Part shown: positions 1-5,855 of the stretch, in pieces | Layout: each line of letters begins with the position of its first letter | Position numbering within the stretch: position 1 is the first letter of the stretch | IMG/VR virus record: IMGVR_UViG_3300028996_000015 | From: a virus | Taxonomy: Duplodnaviria; Heunggongvirae; Uroviricota; Caudoviricetes | Length of the DNA: 5,855 bases | Strand: one strand, 5' to 3' | The notes under the pieces: generated by a model | The model's database searches: none | Seen by the model: the letters and a program-made list of their open reading frames with translations, nothing else | What the model was told of the DNA's origin: nothing | Position numbers and translations under genes: made by a program

Positions 1-592
1 CCGCCGCATCGACCTTCGAGTGAAAACGGGGTCCGAAGCCATCCGGGCGCTGGCCATGCAGATCCCGGCGTTTCGTCAGAAACTGAGCGACGGCTGGTAT
101 CAGGTACGGATTGCCGGGCGGGACGTCAGCACGTCCGGATTAACGGCGCAGTTACATGAGACTCTGCCTGATGGCGCTGTGATTCATATTGTTCCCAGAG
201 TCGCCGGGGCCAAGTCAGGTGGTGTATTCCAGATTGTCCTGGGAGCAGCCGCCATTGCCGGATCATTCTTTACCGCCGGAGCCACCCTTGCAGCATGGGG
301 GGCAGCCATTGGGGCCGGTGGTATGACCGGTATCCTGTTTTCTCTCGGTGCCAGTATGGTACTTGGTGGTGTGGCGCAGATGCTGGCACCGAAAGCTAGA
401 ACTCCCCGTACACAGACAACGGATAACGGTAAGCAGAACACCTATTTCTCCTCACTGGATAACATGGTTGCCCAGGGCAATGTTCTGCCTGTTCTGTACG
501 GTGAAATGCGCGTGGGGTCGCGGGTGGCTTCTCAGGAGATCAGCACGGCAGACGAGGGGGACGGTGGTCAGGTTGTGGTGATTGGTCGTTGA
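1..592 (+). CDS. I: Tail (tip) assembly protein I, 5'-truncated by the window edge; reading frame starts at position 2, stop TGA at 590-592
   Basis: Translation from position 2 gives RRIDLRVKTGSEAIRALAMQIPAFRQKLSDGWYQVRIAGRDV...GGQVVVIGR, which I recognise as close to the C-terminal ~190 residues of phage lambda protein I (comparison from memory). The first ATG in the track (20) is internal; the real start lies upstream of the window. Sits immediately upstream of J as in lambda. Confidence 0.93.
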   Translation, partial: RRIDLRVKTGSEAIRALAMQIPAFRQKLSDGWYQVRIAGRDVSTSGLTAQLHETLPDGAVIHIVPRVAGAKSGGVFQIVLGAAAIAGSFFTAGATLAAWGAAIGAGGMTGILFSLGASMVLGGVAQMLAPKARTPRTQTTDNGKQNTYFSSLDNMVAQGNVLPVLYGEMRVGSRVASQEISTADEGDGGQVVVIGR

Positions 593-652: not shown

Positions 653-3600
653 ATGGGTAAAGGCAGCAGTAAGGGGCATACCCCGCGCGAAGCGAAGGAC
701 AACCTGAAATCATCCCAGATGCTGAGCGTGATAGACGCCATCAGTGAAGGGCCGGTTGAAGGTCCGGTGGACGGATTAAAAAGTGTGCTGCTGAACAGTA
801 CGCCAGTGCTGGACAGTGAGGGGAATACCAATATCTCCGGTGTCACGGTGGTTTTCCGGGCAGGTGAGCAGGAGCAGACACCGCCGGAGGGATTTGAATC
901 CTCCGGCTCCGAGACGGTGCTGGGTACGGAAGTGAAGTACGACACGCCGATTACCCGGACCATCACGTCTGCAAACATCGACCGTCTGCGCTTTACCTTC
1001 GGTGTGCAGGCACTGGTGGAAACCACCTCAAAGGGGGACCGGAATCTGTCGGAAGTTCGCCTGCTGGTTCAGATACAGCGTAATGGTGGCTGGGTGACGG
1101 AAAAAGACATCACCATTAAGGGCAAAACCACCTCGCAGTATCTGGCCTCGGTGGTGGTGGATAACCTGCCGCCGCGCCCGTTCAATATACGGATGCGCAG
1201 GATGACGCCGGACAGCACCACAGACCAGCTGCAGAACAAAACGCTCTGGTCGTCATACACCGAAATCATCGATGTGAAACAGTGCTACCCGAACACGGCA
1301 CTGGTCGGCGTGCAGGTGGATTCGGAGCAGTTCGGCAGCCAGCAGGTGAGCCGTAATTATCATCTGCGCGGGCGTATTCTGCAGGTGCCGTCGAATTATA
1401 ACCCGCAGACGCGGCAATACAGCGGTATCTGGGACGGAACGTTTAAACCGGCATACAGCAACAACATGGCCTGGTGTCTGTGGGATATGCTGACCCACCC
1501 GCGCTACGGCATGGGGAAACGTCTTGGTGCGGCAGATGTGGATAAATGGGCGCTGTATGTCATCGGCCAGAATTGCGACCAGTCGGTGCCGGACGGCTTT
1601 GGCGGCACGGAGCCGCGCATTACCTGTAATGCGTACCTGACCACACAGCGCAAGGCGTGGGATGTGCTCAGTGATTTCTGCTCGGCGATGCGCTGTATGC
1701 CGGTATGGAACGGGCAGACGCTGACGTTCGTGCAGGACCGACCGTCGGATAAGGTGTGGACCTATAACCGCAGTAATGTGGTGATGCCGGATGATGGCGC
1801 GCCGTTCCGCTACAGCTTCAGCGCCCTGAAGGACCGCCATAATGCCGTTGAGGTGAACTGGATTGACCCGGATAACGGCTGGGGNNNNNNNNNNNNNNNN
1901 NNNNNNNNNNNNNNNNNNNNNNNNNNNNNNNNNNNNNNNNNNNNNNNNNNNNNNNNNNNNNNNNGGCTGTACCAGCCGGGGGCAGGCACACCGCGCCGGG
2001 CTGTGGCTGATTAAAACGGAGCTGCTGGAAACGCAGACCGTGGACTTCAGCGTGGGTGCTGAAGGGCTTCGCCATGTACCGGGGGATGTCATTGAAATCT
2101 GCGATGATGACTATGCCGGTATCAGCACCGGTGGTCGTGTGCTGGCGGTGAACAGCCAGACCCGGACGCTGACGCTCGACCGTGAAATCACGCTGCCATC
2201 CTCCGGCACCACGCTGATAAGCCTGGTTGACGGTGAGGGTAATCCGGTCAGCGTGGAGGTCCAGTCCGTCACCGACGGCGTGAAGGTGAAAGTGAGCCGT
2301 GTTCCTGACGGCGTTGCTGAATACAGCGTGTGGGGGCTGAAGTTGCCGACGTTGCGCCAGCGCCTGTTCCGCTGCGTGAGTATCCGTGAGAACGACGACG
2401 GCACGTATGCCATCACTGCCGTGCAGCATGTACCGGAGAAAGAGGCCATCGTGGATAACGGGGCGCACTTTGACGGCGACCAGAGCGGCACGGTGAATGG
2501 TGTCACGCCGCCAGCGGTGCAGCACCTGACTGCCGAAGTCACCGCAGACAGCGGGGAATATCAGGTACTGGCCCGCTGGGACACGCCGAAGGTGGTGAAG
2601 GGCGTGAGCTTCCTGCTTCGCCTGACCGTGGCAGCGGACGACGGCAGTGAGCGGCTGGTCAGCACGGCCAGGACGACGGAAACCACATACCGCTTCAGGC
2701 AACTGGCGCTGGGGCGTTACACGCTGACGGTCCGGGCGGCAAATGCGTGGGGACAGCAGGGCGATCCGGCATCGGTATCGTTCCGGATTGCCGCACCGGC
2801 AGCGCCGTCGCGGATTGAGCTGACGCCGGGCTATTTTCAGATAACCGCCACGCCCCATCTTGCCGTTTATGATCCGACGGTACAATTTGAGTTCTGGTTC
2901 TCGGAAACGCGGATTACCGATATCAGGCAGGTTGAAACTACAGCCCGCTATCTTGGCACGGCGCTGTACTGGATAGCTGCCAGTATCAATATCAAACCGG
3001 GCCATGATTATTATTTTTACATCCGCAGTGTGAACACCGTTGGCAAATCGGCATTTGTGGAGGCTGTTGGCCAGCCGAGTGATGATGCATCCGGCTATCT
3101 GGATTTTTTCAAAGGCGAGATAGGGAAAAGCCATCTGGCTCAGGAGCTGTGGACGCAGATTGATAACGGTCAGCTTGCGCCTGACCTGGCTGAAATCAGG
3201 ACGTCCATTACGGATGTCAGCAATGAAATCACGCAGACCGTCAATAAGAAACTGGAAGACCAGAGTGCGGCAATTCAGCAGATACAGAAGGTTCAGGTTG
3301 ATACAAATAATAACCTGAACAGCATGTGGGCTGTGAAGCTGCAGCAGATGCAGGACGGACGCCTTTATATCGCGGGTATTGGTGCCGGTATTGAGAACAC
3401 CCCTGACGGCATGCAGAGTCAGGTGCTGCTGGCGGCGGACAGGATTGCGATGGTTAATCCTGCGAATGGCAACACAAAGCCGATGTTTGTTGGTCAGGGC
3501 GATCAGATATTCATGAACGAAGTGTTCCTGAAATATCTGACGGCTCCCACCATTACCAGCGGCGGTAATCCTCCGGCATTTTCCCTGACACCGGACGGGC

Positions 3601-4136
3601 GGCTGACGGCGAAAAATGCCGATATCAGCGGTAACGTGAATGCGAACTCCGGGACGCTCAACAACGTCACGATTAACGAGAACTGCCGGGTTCTGGGAAA
3701 ACTGTCCGCGAACCAGATTGAAGGCGATCTCGTTAAAACAGTGGGTAAAGCTTTCCCCCGGGACTCCCGTGCACCGGAACGGTGGCCATCAGGGACCATT
3801 ACCGTCAGGATTTATGACGATCAGCCGTTTGACCGACAGATTGTTATTCCGGCGGTGGCATTCAGCGGCGCTAAGCATGAGAGAGAGCATACTGATATTT
3901 ACTCCTCATGCCGTCTGATAGTGCGGAAAAACGGTGCTGAAATTTATAACCGTACCGCGCTGGATAATACGCTGATTTACAGTGGCGTTATTGATATGCC
4001 TGCCGGTCACGGTCACATGACGCTGGAGTTTTCGGTGTCAGCATGGCTGGTAAATAACTGGTATCCCACAGCAAGTATCAGCGATTTGCTGGTTGTGGTG
4101 ATGAAGAAAGCCACCGCAGGCATCAGTATCAGCTGA
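653..4136 (+). CDS. J: Tail tip host-specificity protein / central tail fiber J; a single gene interrupted by an 80-nt N run (1885-1964) that shifts the apparent frame
   Basis: The two track ORFs 653..2014 and 1863..4136 are the two halves of one protein. The N-terminal half ([34 protein letters not shown]...NWIDPDNGW) and the residues after the gap ([31 protein letters not shown]...) both match lambda J as I recall it, and are collinear. Start ATG at 653 with GGAG at 641-644; stop TGA at 4134-4136. Lambda J is known to carry fibronectin-III-like repeats centrally and a C-terminal receptor-binding domain. Confidence 0.95.
1885..1964. other. Run of 80 N (unresolved or masked sequence) inside the J coding region
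   Basis: Seen directly. 80 is not a multiple of 3, so the J frame changes from phase 2 (before) to phase 0 (after); conserved J protein sequence resumes immediately after the run. Confidence 0.99.
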
Positions 4137-4154
4137 ATTTTATAGCCCCAATAC

Positions 4155-4180
4155 GGGCGTCAGAAATGACGCCTTTTTTA
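4155..4180 (+). terminator. Rho-independent terminator downstream of J
   Basis: GGCGTCA (4156-4162), loop GAAA, TGACGCC (4167-4173), then TTTTTTA (4174-4180); starts 20 nt after the J stop. Confidence 0.8.
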
Positions 4181-4203
4181 TTGCAGAAAAGCGAGAGGTA
4201 ATT

Positions 4204-4803
4204 ATGCGTAAATTATGTGCTGTTATTCTGTCCGCAGTAGTCTGGCTGGTTGCCGCTGGTACGCCAGCGAGCGCAGCAGAGCATCAGTCCACACTAAGCG
4301 CCGGGTATCTTCAGACCCATACTGATATGCCAGGCAGTGATGACCTGAAGGGCATTAACGTGAAATACCGTTATGAATTTACGGACACGCTGGGGCTGGT
4401 GACGTCATTCAGTTATGCCAATGCCAAAGATGAGCAAAAAACGCATTACAGCGATACCCGCTGGCATGAAGATTCCGTGCGTAACCGCTGGTTCAGCATG
4501 ATGGCGGGGCCATCTGTACGCGTGAATGAATGGTTCAGTGCTTATGCGATGGCGGGTATGGCTTACAGCCGTGTGTCGACCTTCTCCGGGGATTATCTCC
4601 GCGTAACTGACAACAAGGGGAAAACGCACGATGTGCTGACCGGAAGTGATGACGGTCGCCACAGCAACACGTCTCTGGCGTGGGGGGCTGGCGTGCAGTT
4701 TAACCCGACCGAATCCGTGGCCATTGACCTTGCTTATGAAGGTTCCGGCAGTGGTGACTGGCGCACTGACGGTTTCATCGTGGGTGTCGGTTATAAATTC
4801 TGA
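4204..4803 (+). CDS. lom: Lom outer-membrane beta-barrel protein (Ail/Lom/PagC/OmpX family), a phage moron
   Basis: 199-aa ORF with an N-terminal signal peptide (MRKLCAVILSAVVWLVAAGTPASA, predicted cleavage before AEHQ), the conserved GINVKYRYE motif, and a C-terminus AYEGSGSGDWRTDGFIVGVGYKF that matches lambda Lom as I recall it, ending in the aromatic residue typical of OM beta-barrels. SD GAGAGG at 4193-4198, ATG at 4204. Position between J and stf is as in lambda. Confidence 0.95.
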   Translation: MRKLCAVILSAVVWLVAAGTPASAAEHQSTLSAGYLQTHTDMPGSDDLKGINVKYRYEFTDTLGLVTSFSYANAKDEQKTHYSDTRWHEDSVRNRWFSMMAGPSVRVNEWFSAYAMAGMAYSRVSTFSGDYLRVTDNKGKTHDVLTGSDDGRHSNTSLAWGAGVQFNPTESVAIDLAYEGSGSGDWRTDGFIVGVGYKF

Positions 4804-4830
4804 TTAGCCAGGTAACACAGTGTTATGACA

Positions 4831-4856
4831 GCCCGCCGGTTCAGGCGGGCTTTTTT
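4831..4856 (+). terminator. Rho-independent terminator downstream of lom
   Basis: GCCCGCC (4831-4837), loop GGTTCA, GGCGGGC (4844-4850), then TTTTTT (4851-4856); GC-rich 7-bp stem. Confidence 0.85.
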
Positions 4857-4867
4857 GTGGAGTGGAT

Positions 4868-5855
4868 ATGGCAGCAGTAAAAATCTCAGGTGTGCTGAAA
4901 GATGGTGCGGGAAAACCAATACAGAACTGCACTATTCAACTGAAGGCAAAGCGTAACAGCACCACGGTACTGGTGAACACGGTGGCTTCTGAAAATCCGG
5001 ATGAAGCCGGACGTTACAGCATGGATGTTGAGTATGGCCAGTACAGCGTCACCCTGCTGGTTGAAGGTTTTCCGCCTTCACATGCCGGGACCATTACCGT
5101 CTATGAAGGCTCCAGACCAGGTACGCTGAATGATTTTCTCGGTGCCATGACGGAAGATGATGTCATGCCGGAGGCATTGCGTCGTTTTGAGGCAATGGTG
5201 GAAGAAGTGGCACGCAACGCCGAAGCCGCCTCTCAGAGCGCAGCGGCGGCAAAGAAATCCGAAACTGCAGCGGCATCATCAAAGAACGCGGCGAAAACCT
5301 CAGAAACGAATGCAGCTAATAGTGCACAGGCGGCAGCGACCTCGCAGACTGCATCGGCAAACTCCGCGACAGCAGCCAAAAAATCAGAAACCAACGCGAA
5401 AAATAGCGAGACAGCCGCAAAGACGAGCGAAACCAACGCAAAGTCCAGCCAGACGGCAGCGAAAACCAGCGAAACGAATGCCAAAGCCAGTGAAACTGCG
5501 GCGAAAAGCAGTCAGGATGCAGCAGCCGAAAGCGAGAGCGCGGCAGCTGGTTCTGCGACTTCAGCTGCTGGATCAGCAACTGCTGCGGCTAACAGTCAGA
5601 AAGCAGCGAAGACGAGTGAAACTAACGCAAAGTCCAGCCAGACGGCAGCGAAGACCAGCGAAACGAATGCCAAAGCCAGCGAAACTGCGGCGAAAAGCAG
5701 TCAGGATGCAGCAGCCGAAAGCGAGAGTGCTGCAGCTGGTTCTGCAAGCGCGGCTGCTGCTTCTGCCACTGCATCAGCTAACAGTCAAAAAGCAGCAAAA
5801 ACCAGTGAAACCAACGCAAAGGTGAGTGAAACAGCGGCTGCGAACTCAGCGAAAG
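4868..5855 (+). CDS. stf: Side tail fiber protein Stf, N-terminal portion; 3'-truncated by the window edge
   Basis: My translation in phase 2 from ATG 4868 (GGAG at 4859-4862) is open to the window end: MAAVKISGVLKDGAGKPIQNCTIQLKAKRNSTTVLVNTVASENPDEAGRYSMDVEYGQYSVTLLVEGFPPSHAGTITVYEGSRPGTLNDFLGAMTEDD..., then an Ala/Ser/Thr/Lys-rich repeat region. The N-terminus matches lambda Stf (orf401) as I recall it. The track ORF 5157..5825 is a different frame of this same repeat and is not the gene. Confidence 0.92.
   Translation, partial: MAAVKISGVLKDGAGKPIQNCTIQLKAKRNSTTVLVNTVASENPDEAGRYSMDVEYGQYSVTLLVEGFPPSHAGTITVYEGSRPGTLNDFLGAMTEDDVMPEALRRFEAMVEEVARNAEAASQSAAAAKKSETAAASSKNAAKTSETNAANSAQAAATSQTASANSATAAKKSETNAKNSETAAKTSETNAKSSQTAAKTSETNAKASETAAKSSQDAAAESESAAAGSATSAAGSATAAANSQKAAKTSETNAKSSQTAAKTSETNAKASETAAKSSQDAAAESESAAAGSASAAAASATASANSQKAAKTSETNAKVSETAAANSAK
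5225..5855 (+). repeat. In-frame 21-nt (heptad) periodic Ala/Ser/Thr/Lys-rich region within stf
   Basis: The translation falls into consecutive 7-residue units (TAAKTSE / TNAKSSQ / TAAKTSE / TNAKASE / TAAKSSQ / DAAAESE / SAAAGSA ...) with no register break for at least 30 heptads, running to the window end. Confidence 0.85.
5420..5797 (+). repeat. Two tandem copies of a 189-bp (63-codon, 9-heptad) unit within stf
   Basis: Copy 1 (5420-5608) and copy 2 (5609-5797) each begin aag acg ag(c/t) gaa ac(c/t) aac gca aag tcc agc cag acg gca gcg. The first ~45 codons differ only at a few mostly synonymous positions; the last ~18 are more divergent. A third, degenerate copy begins at 5798. Confidence 0.9.

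What the first reader, a model, noticed from the sequence alone, without database searches (positions are those of the whole stretch)
3115..4136. J C-terminal third appears mosaic relative to lambda: possible different receptor specificity
The N-terminal two-thirds of J track lambda J closely, but from about the DFFKG motif onward the protein ([35 protein letters not shown] ... [76 protein letters not shown]) seems substantially divergent from lambda as I remember it. Conserved islands remain, such as [21 protein letters not shown] and VIDMPAG. In lambda the last ~250 residues of J bind LamB and set host range, and natural J variants differing mainly here use other outer-membrane receptors such as OmpC. 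This phage may therefore use a receptor other than LamB. The divergence claim relies on memory of lambda J, not on an alignment.
Basis: partly seen in the sequence, partly recalled or inferred. Interest (0 to 1): 0.5.

Follow-up and report, generated by a model that had tools for sequence, protein, structure and literature searches.

The report
Lambda-like tail tip with OmpC-type receptor domain
The tail-tip protein J of this E. coli prophage really is a patchwork whose last ~160 residues differ from phage lambda's, but this version is very common and already characterised: a near-identical domain was shown in 2024 to use the porin OmpC instead of LamB.

Summary
J is about 96-98% identical to lambda J up to window nt ~3113. 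From the residue after DFFKG it falls to about 50%, with a 28-residue insertion. The best statistical breakpoint is nt 3117.

The divergent third is two separate modules.
- nt ~3114-3600 (helical shaft plus beta-prism fibre) is 96% identical to phage 21. Phage 21 uses LamB, so this part says nothing about the receptor.
- nt ~3600-4133 (receptor-binding domain, RBD) is 43% identical to lambda, 65% to phage 21 and 63% to phi330.

The RBD matches two known versions closely.
- It is 99% identical to those of PhiR55_1 and an Stx2a phage.
- It matches 174 of 190 residues of the engineered chimera "gpJ 1A2" of Brödel et al. 2024. Most of the other 16 columns fall at or next to text-extraction errors in the published sequence.

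1A2 particles deliver DNA into lamB/ompC-deleted cells only when a suitable OmpC allele is supplied. This worked for 20 of 23 alleles tested, including EDL933 but not K-12.

It is not new. The RBD DNA occurs at 95% identity or more in 2,490 of the 20,395 records searched (5,426 complete E. coli genomes).

The parts
20..592 (+). 3' part of tail assembly gene I (start lies upstream or near the window edge)
   Evidence: ORF; Pfam Lambda_tail_I match, E = 6e-18; annotated as I in related phages.
653..4136 (+). Gene J (tip attachment protein / central tail fibre). About 1159 codons in intact relatives; interrupted here by an N run.
   Evidence: Pfam FNIII-A_GpJ, Phage-tail_3, Ig_J, Ig_J_second, Phage_Tail_Tip and Ig_GpJ_C are all above their cut-offs. 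Nt 1965-5855 are 99.9% identical to E. coli M-17, where gpJ is annotated as intact at 3480 nt.
1885..1964 (.). Run of 80 N inside J. Relatives have 76 bases here, so the apparent frame change across it is probably a masking artefact.
   Evidence: 76 bases lie between the same flanks in lambda, phage 21, PhiR46_1 and PhiR55_1.
653..3113 (+). Module 1: hub domains plus the FNIII/Ig domains, lambda/21/434-like
   Evidence: 93-95% identity to lambda, phage 21 and 434 over residues 1-815, with the masked residues counted as mismatches. Block-wise identity is 90-100%.
3114..3600 (+). Module 2: alpha-helical shaft plus beta-prism central straight fibre, phage-21 type, with a shaft 28 residues longer than lambda's
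   Evidence: 96% identity to phage 21 against 54% to lambda. DNA is 91-100% identical to phage 21 up to nt 3555. The 28-residue insertion is seen. Domain names are from PMC11101478. Pfam Phage_Tail_Tip covers about nt 3270-3656.
3417..3650 (+). Conserved stretch (…[54 protein letters not shown]…) shared by all J types. This is the likely crossover zone between shaft and RBD.
   Evidence: 88-100% identity to all compared J proteins at residues 961-1000. Phage 21 DNA identity starts to fall after nt 3555, and Stx2a_2499 rises to 96-100% from nt 3601. The Brödel et al. fusion point at lambda residue 964 lies here.
3601..4133 (+). Module 3: receptor-binding domain of the '1A2' type (Ig-like)
   Evidence: Identity is 99% to PhiR55_1 and Stx2a_2499, 65% to phage 21, 63% to phi330, 43% to lambda and 44% to 434. 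174 of 190 residues are identical to gpJ 1A2. Pfam Ig_GpJ_C matches from nt 3741 to 4133. The AlphaFold model is all-beta, and its best PDB matches are 9wca, 8xck, 9wcb and 8xcj.
4155..4184 (+). Terminator-like hairpin with T run after J
4204..4803 (+). lom (Ail/Lom outer-membrane beta-barrel, 199 aa)
   Evidence: Pfam Ail_Lom, E = 1.5e-127.
4868..5855 (+). 5' part of the side tail fibre gene stf, open to the window end
   Evidence: Translation; Pfam phage_tail_N, E = 1e-67.

Best explanation
J of this lambdoid prophage is a three-part recombinant.
1. The N-terminal ~815 residues form the tail hub and the FNIII/Ig domains. They are the lambda/21/434 version.
2. The next ~185 residues form the helical shaft and the beta-prism fibre. 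They are the phage-21 version.
3. The last ~160 residues form the receptor-binding domain. They are the version found in many Stx and ECOR prophages, and the one used as 'gpJ 1A2' by Brödel et al. 2024.

The modules were most likely joined by homologous recombination within short stretches conserved among all J genes: around DFFKG, and around [12 protein letters not shown]…NADISG…NVTINENC.

By inference from 1A2, the trimeric RBD at the fibre tip docks onto the trimeric porin OmpC, not LamB. It should accept most natural E. coli OmpC alleles but not the K-12 allele. As shown structurally for lambda-LamB (described in PMC11101478) and, per its PDB title, for A8 gpJ bound to OmpC (9wcb), binding would then trigger refolding of the shaft and opening of the tail.

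Shown here: the sequence mosaic, its breakpoints, and the near identity to 1A2. Inferred: the receptor itself, and whether this particular prophage is functional.
For: Breakpoints and module identities.

Identity to 1A2. The DNA of gpJ 1A2 and A8 was read from Supplementary file 1 of PMC11338833. A frameshift-tolerant alignment gives 174 of 190 identical residues between the window and 1A2, with 7 more columns lost to text-extraction indels. The window matches A8 at only 125 of 194.

Published function of 1A2:
- The chimeras were screened in a lamB-deleted recipient and in MG1655 deleted for lamB and ompC carrying plasmid-borne OmpC variants.
- The source data show at least 76% delivery at the top MOI for 20 of 23 OmpC variants, and 2% or less for G1, G2 and G40.

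Cross-check of the method: A8 matches the RBD of phi330 at 175 of 190 residues, and phi330 was independently shown to need OmpC by knockout and complementation.

Fold: phmmer finds 9wca (A8 gpJ 713) at E = 2.6e-119 and lambda gpJ chains 8xcj/8iyk at about 1e-97. The AlphaFold model's top PDB hits are the same entries, including 9wcb, 'A8 gpJ 713 central tail fiber with OmpC G17 from E. coli EDL933'.

Functional relatives: PhiR55_1 (RBD 99% identical) and PhiR46_1 (94%) are deposited as complete phage genomes with a named host (E. coli C, ECOR13), which suggests they were propagated as phages.
Against: - No experiment exists on this prophage itself.
- The 1A2 sequence had to be read from machine-extracted PDF text with indels. 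The exact number of true differences is uncertain; at least R->K, S->T, and probably F->L and I->V.
- One difference, R->K in HEREH/HEKEH, lies in the hairpin that aligns with the phi330 hairpin predicted to enter the OmpC barrel.
- Receptor choice in this family is labile. The RBD of phage 21 (LamB) is 81% identical to that of phi330 (OmpC), and a single mutation lets phage 21 use OmpC.
- 1A2 carries lambda's shaft, whereas this J carries the phage-21 shaft. An effect of the shaft on triggering is not excluded.
- The N run prevents confirmation that J is intact in this genome.
Confidence: 0.78

Rival explanations
1. The RBD still uses LamB, as in phage 21. The sequence difference from lambda reflects an alternative way of binding the same porin.
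For: Phage 21 has the same shaft (96% identity). Its RBD is only 47% identical to lambda's, yet its native receptor is LamB. Divergence from lambda does not by itself imply a new receptor.
Against: The window RBD is only 65% identical to phage 21's, but about 92-98% identical to 1A2. 1A2 works in lamB-deleted cells, and its activity switches on and off with the OmpC allele.
Confidence: 0.07
2. The few substitutions relative to 1A2, or the phage-21-type shaft, change or broaden the specificity. This could mean a different set of OmpC alleles, or additional use of OmpF or LamB.
For: Variation within this RBD type clusters in loops. PhiR46_1 differs at HEQDH, AGSGVM and VNGWYP. Single J mutations expand receptor use in phage 21.
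Against: The RBD is 99% identical to those of PhiR55_1 and Stx2a_2499, and occurs at 95% DNA identity or more in 2,490 genome records. This suggests one conserved functional type.
Confidence: 0.1
3. The prophage, or its J gene, is defective, so the domain has no current role in adsorption.
For: An 80-N run interrupts J, and the frames on its two sides differ by one base. In the 99.9% identical M-17 copy, the stf gene is annotated as a pseudogene fragment followed by a second ORF.
Against: Both J segments (410 and 723 codons) are free of stop codons. Relatives have 76 bases where the window has 80 N, so the frame change is most simply a masking artefact. M-17 gpJ is annotated as intact. stf is open throughout in the window.
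Confidence: 0.1

Closest known systems
gpJ 1A2 chimera (Brödel et al., Nature 2024, PMC11338833)
   Same: The receptor-binding segment from lambda residue 964 to the end is the same type. 174 of 190 residues are identical, and most of the remaining 16 columns fall at or next to text-extraction errors.
   Different: 1A2 carries lambda's hub and shaft, whereas this J carries a phage-21-type shaft with 28 extra residues. There are a few real substitutions: R->K in HEREH, S->T in GISIS, and probably F->L and I->V. 1A2 was tested as a packaged-cosmid particle, not as a phage.
gpJ of the E. coli M-17 prophage, and J of phages PhiR55_1 and PhiR46_1
   Same: M-17 is 99.9% identical over nt 1965-5855, and 100% identical in every 45-nt block of nt 2701-4136. 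PhiR55_1 J is 95-99% identical in all three modules, and PhiR46_1 is 94-99%. Gene order is the same: K-I-J-lom-stf.
   Different: Essentially nothing. No receptor data were found for these phages.
Phage 21 J (native receptor LamB)
   Same: Hub (95%) and shaft plus fibre (96%) are the same, including the long helical shaft.
   Different: The RBD is only 65% identical. DNA identity falls from 98-100% to about 50-60% after nt ~3735.
Phage lambda J (LamB; structures 8xck, 8xcj)
   Same: Same domain architecture. The first 819 residues are about 96-98% identical. The [12 protein letters not shown] island is conserved. Same Ig-like RBD fold.
   Different: The shaft is 54% identical and 28 residues shorter in lambda. 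The RBD is 43% identical.
phi330 J and gpJ A8 (OmpC, including K-12 OmpC; structures 9wca, 9wcb)
   Same: Same RBD fold and framework, about 63% identity. Both are OmpC binders according to published work.
   Different: Two of the three loops discussed for phi330/434-OmpC contacts differ in length. DSRAPERW here corresponds to TSTY in phi330. HEREHTD here corresponds to HENFNSNNQQS in phi330. A8 uses K-12 OmpC and 1A2 does not.

Membership tests
Lambda gpJ (tip attachment protein J / central tail fibre) | Position in the tail gene cluster: ...K-I-J-lom-stf | tested here: met
   ORFs and Pfam matches for I, J, lom and the stf N-terminus. The same order is annotated in lambda, PhiR55_1, PhiR46_1 and M-17.
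Lambda gpJ (tip attachment protein J / central tail fibre) | Domain architecture: hub / Phage-tail_3, FNIII-A, two Ig/FNIII domains, tail-tip fibre, C-terminal Ig-like RBD | tested here: met
   PF24801, PF13550, PF24421, PF24489, PF09327 and PF12421 are all above their curated cut-offs.
Lambda gpJ (tip attachment protein J / central tail fibre) | Uninterrupted reading frame of about 1130-1160 codons | tested here: inconclusive
   80 N at nt 1885-1964, and the frames differ by one base across the run. Relatives have 76 bases there, and the M-17 copy is intact.
Lambda gpJ (tip attachment protein J / central tail fibre) | Homotrimeric fibre closing the tail tip | not testable with these tools
   Only a monomer model could be made.
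Lambda-type LamB-binding RBD | RBD sequence of the lambda type | tested here: not met
   43% identity over the RBD, and 40% over the last 133 residues.
Lambda-type LamB-binding RBD | LamB-dependent adsorption | not testable with these tools
   Needs plating or adsorption assays on a lamB deletion.
1A2-type OmpC-binding RBD | Near identity to gpJ 1A2 over the swapped segment (lambda residue 964 to the end) | tested here: met
   174 of 190 residues identical, with 7 further columns unreadable because of extraction indels. The window matches A8 at 125 of 194.
1A2-type OmpC-binding RBD | Entry independent of LamB and dependent on the OmpC allele (EDL933-type yes, K-12 no) | not testable with these tools
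   Published for 1A2 only.
A8/phi330-type OmpC-binding RBD | RBD sequence of the A8/phi330 type | tested here: not met
   63% identity to phi330 and 125 of 194 to A8. Loop lengths differ.
Phage-21-type shaft (helical shaft plus straight fibre) | Sequence of the phage-21 type, including the long helical shaft | tested here: met
   96% protein identity, and 91-100% DNA identity over nt 3106-3555.

The most novel reading that the evidence does not exclude
This OmpC-type RBD, rather than lambda's LamB type, may be the prevailing tail-tip specificity of lambda-like prophages in natural E. coli. Its DNA is found at 95% identity or more in 2,490 of the 20,395 records searched (5,426 complete genomes). 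The matching 1A2 domain cannot use K-12 OmpC, so prophages carrying this RBD would be missed systematically when induced lysates are plated on K-12 indicator strains. In addition, the substitutions in the hairpin loops (HEREH, HEKEH, HEQDH) could mark an ongoing arms race with OmpC alleles.
Probability: 0.3. Interest if true: 0.4.

Novelty: already known. Interest (0 to 1): 0.15.

Why it matters
It matters little as a discovery. Identical or near-identical J genes are annotated in thousands of E. coli genomes, and the receptor of this RBD type has been established with engineered lambda particles.

It is useful as annotation.
- The prophage should be predicted to adsorb through OmpC, in non-K-12 alleles, and not through LamB. 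This affects the choice of indicator strain and any host-range prediction.
- It gives a clean natural example of how J is built from three exchangeable cassettes joined at short conserved stretches. One of those stretches holds the junction that engineers chose for chimeric gpJ.

Tried and rejected
- **PhiR phage papers.** Literature searches for the PhiR phages or their accession numbers found nothing. No receptor data were found for the closest phage relatives.
- **Peptide search in the supplement.** Searching the Brödel et al. supplement for peptide strings found nothing, because the sequences are given as DNA. They turned up on searching for the names.
- **tblastn on the extracted DNA.** Plain tblastn against the machine-extracted DNA gave broken, frame-hopping matches. 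A frameshift-tolerant alignment replaced it.
- **Inferring the receptor from the nearest typed phage.** This was rejected. Phage 21 (LamB) and phi330 (OmpC) are 81% identical to each other in the RBD, and both are about 64% identical to the window.
- **Failed runs.** One alignment call failed on wrong-frame coordinates.
- **Stx2a_2499 breakpoint.** The maximum chi-square breakpoint for Stx2a_2499 was meaningless, because of an unaligned N-terminal overhang. The block table was used instead.
- **Structure model.** The AlphaFold monomer model is only moderately confident: mean pLDDT 70.8, and poor in the part that needs the trimer. It was used only to confirm the fold and to locate loops.
- **Host OmpC allele.** I did not try to type the OmpC allele of the host genome.
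Full report
**What is in the window**

The window holds the distal tail genes of a lambda-like prophage, all on the + strand:
- the 3' part of I (nt 20-592)
- J (nt 653-4136)
- lom (nt 4204-4803)
- the first 329 codons of the side tail fibre gene stf (nt 4868 to the end)

These assignments come from the ORF list and translation and Pfam matches. J is interrupted by 80 N at nt 1885-1964.

Nt 1965-5855 are 99.9% identical to a prophage of E. coli M-17, where gpJ is annotated as an intact 3480-nt gene. The whole window is about 95-96% identical to the phages PhiR46_1 and 2G7b, and most of it (91%) is 96.3% identical to PhiR55_1.

**Checking the observation**

I aligned J to lambda J (NC_001416).
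- Residues 1-410: 400 of 410 identical.
- Residues 437-819: 95.6% identical.
- From lambda residue 820, the residue after DFFKG: 52.9% identical, with a 28-residue insertion.
- Last 133 residues: 40% identical.

A maximum chi-square scan places the breakpoint at window residue 821, nt 3117. None of 1000 permutations reached the observed value, and Fisher's exact test gives p = 9e-79.

[21 protein letters not shown] is identical in lambda, and VIDMPAG corresponds to IVDMPAG.

**Anatomy of the divergent third**

I used the domain names of the lambda gpJ cryo-EM study: hub domains, FNIII-1 and FNIII-2, alpha-helical shaft, central straight fibre, and an Ig-like RBD with four receptor-binding loops (PMC11101478). 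I compared J with lambda, 21, 434, phi330, PhiR55_1, PhiR46_1 and Stx2a_2499. Identity to the window J by module:

| Module (window residues) | lambda | 21 | 434 | phi330 | Stx2a_2499 | PhiR55_1 |
|---|---|---|---|---|---|---|
| Hub + FNIII (1-815) | 93% | 95% | 95% | 63% | 71% | 95% |
| Shaft + fibre (816-1000) | 54% | 96% | 53% | 66% | 64% | 99% |
| RBD (1001-1159) | 43% | 65% | 44% | 63% | 99% | 99% |

The hub figures are slightly lowered because the masked residues count as mismatches.

At DNA level there are two junctions.
- Identity to lambda is still 96% at nt 3016-3060, falls to 73% at nt 3061-3150, and collapses after nt 3150.
- Phage 21 stays at 91-100% up to nt 3555, is intermediate up to nt 3735, and is about 50-60% after that.
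- Stx2a_2499 is 82% or less up to nt 3600, and 93-100% over nt 3601-4095.

Stx2a_2499 combines this same RBD with a different hub and a phi330-type shaft. The RBD is therefore exchanged as a cassette of its own. The crossover zone is the stretch [12 protein letters not shown]…NADISG…NVTINENC, which is conserved in every J compared.

The shaft module, with its 28 extra residues, is shared with phage 21. Phage 21's native receptor is LamB (PMC11336670).

**What receptor does this RBD use?**

Similarity to typed phages does not decide the question.
- The RBD is 43% identical to lambda (LamB) and 44% to 434 (OmpC, as stated in PMC12502783).
- It is 65% identical to phage 21 (LamB).
- It is 63% identical to phi330, for which OmpC was shown by Keio knockout and complementation.
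- Phage 21 and phi330 are 81% identical to each other despite using different receptors.

The decisive lead came from Brödel et al. 2024 (PMC11338833). They fused the C-terminal parts of natural gpJ variants to lambda gpJ at residue 964 and obtained two OmpC-using chimeras, A8 and 1A2. Their DNA sequences are printed in Supplementary file 1. The held text is machine-extracted and contains indels, so I used a frameshift-tolerant protein-to-DNA alignment.

| Comparison | Identical residues |
|---|---|
| Window vs 1A2 | 174 of 190 (7 more columns unreadable) |
| Window vs A8 | 125 of 194 |
| phi330 vs A8 | 175 of 190 |
| phi330 vs 1A2 | 121 of 193 |

The clean differences between the window and 1A2 are R->K, S->T, and probably F->L and I->V. 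The window therefore carries the 1A2-type RBD, and phi330 carries the A8 type. The second pairing is an internal check, because phi330's OmpC dependence was established independently.

The published behaviour of 1A2 is as follows.
[quoted passage not shown] - In the source data, 1A2 reaches 76-99% delivery at the top MOI for 20 of 23 OmpC variants. It reaches 2% or less for G1, G2 and G40.
- G1 carries the same numbers as the MG1655 OmpC panel. G17 is EDL933 OmpC according to the title of PDB entry 9wcb.

**Fold**

The C-terminal 343 residues match two sets of PDB chains by sequence: 9wca/9wcb "A8 gpJ 713" (E = 2.6e-119) and lambda gpJ 8xcj/8xck/8iyk (about 1e-97). An AlphaFold2 model of residues 961-1159 has mean pLDDT 70.8, rising to 78-95 in the RBD core. 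It is all-beta, and its top four PDB matches are those same entries.

In the model, the segments that differ most between RBD types are loops or hairpin tips:
- [14 protein letters not shown]
- the hairpin tip at HEREH
- PAGHG
- [12 protein letters not shown]

These align with the loops that the phi330 study discussed for phi330/434 contacts with OmpC in its AlphaFold3 models (T918-Y921, E953-S962, A1015-P1020). Two of them differ in length between the window and phi330/A8. This fits the different OmpC-allele spectra of 1A2 and A8.

**Most likely mechanism**

J is a three-cassette recombinant. Its tip most likely binds OmpC, in most natural alleles but not the K-12 allele, and not LamB. As shown for lambda-LamB (PMC11101478) and, per its PDB title, for A8 gpJ with OmpC (9wcb), binding would then trigger refolding of the shaft and opening of the tail.
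- Shown here: the mosaic, its junctions, and the near identity to 1A2.
- Inferred: the receptor, and that this copy is functional.

My confidence in the OmpC assignment is about 0.78. It is limited by three things:
- the extraction errors in the 1A2 text
- a real R->K change in a putative contact hairpin
- the known lability of receptor choice in this family, where a single mutation lets phage 21 use OmpC

**Rivals**

- LamB retained, as in phage 21 (about 0.07).
- A shifted or broadened specificity caused by the few substitutions or by the phage-21 shaft (about 0.1).
- A defective gene or prophage (about 0.1). Against this, relatives have 76 bases where the window has 80 N, so the frame change across the run is most simply a masking artefact. 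The M-17 copy is intact.

**Novelty**

This is not new. The RBD DNA (nt 3691-4136) is found at 95% identity or more in 2,490 of the 20,395 records searched (5,426 complete E. coli genomes), usually annotated as gpJ. It is also present at 95% protein identity or more in 53 phage records, including Stx-converting phages, PPompW prophages, PhiR55_1 and vB_EcoS-640R1; VT1-Sakai carries the same region at 96% DNA identity. Protein clusters holding it have thousands of members. Its receptor has been determined with the 1A2 chimera.

The finding is a correct reading of an ordinary and well-represented J variant.

Noticed in passing
window 1885-1964: A run of 80 N lies inside J. Lambda, phage 21, PhiR46_1 and PhiR55_1 all have 76 bases between the same flanks. 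The run is therefore not length-faithful, or it hides a 4-base insertion. It makes J appear frameshifted.
   Followed up: partly
window 5409-5821 (within stf, 4868-5855): The Ala/Ser/Thr-rich N-terminal region of the side tail fibre contains a 189-nt (63-residue) tandem repeat: 2.2 copies, 88% matching, with nested 21- and 42-nt periodicity. This explains the strong AT skew seen there. In the 99.9% identical M-17 copy, stf is annotated as a pseudogene fragment plus a second ORF, whereas it is open in frame throughout the window.
   Followed up: partly
L004 (phage 21 J, 1968-5450) versus L002 (phi330 J, 17482-20610): The RBD of phage 21 (native receptor LamB) is 81% identical to that of phi330 and gpJ A8 (receptor OmpC). 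This is much closer than either is to lambda or 434. LamB or OmpC use therefore does not follow RBD sequence clades.
   Followed up: partly
window 4155-4184 and 4830-4860: Terminator-like hairpins with T runs lie directly after J and after lom, so lom is bracketed as its own unit. No sigma-70-like promoter was found by the simple scan in nt 4100-4900.
   Followed up: no
Phage records PV340571 (PhiR55_1), PV340565 (PhiR46_1), PV340566 (PhiR47_1): The three PhiR phages that carry this RBD type list E. coli C or ECOR13 as host, not K-12. This fits the inability of 1A2 to use K-12 OmpC, but the sample is very small. No paper describing these phages was found.
   Followed up: no
PMC11338833, source data for Extended Data Fig. 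2 (supplementary file 10): The numbers listed for panel C (OmpC-EDL933) are identical to those of panel B (OmpC-MG1655) in the held text. They disagree with the main text and with the G17 data in file 9 and file 16. This may be a copy error in the source-data sheet or in its extraction. I relied on the main text and on files 9 and 16.
   Followed up: no
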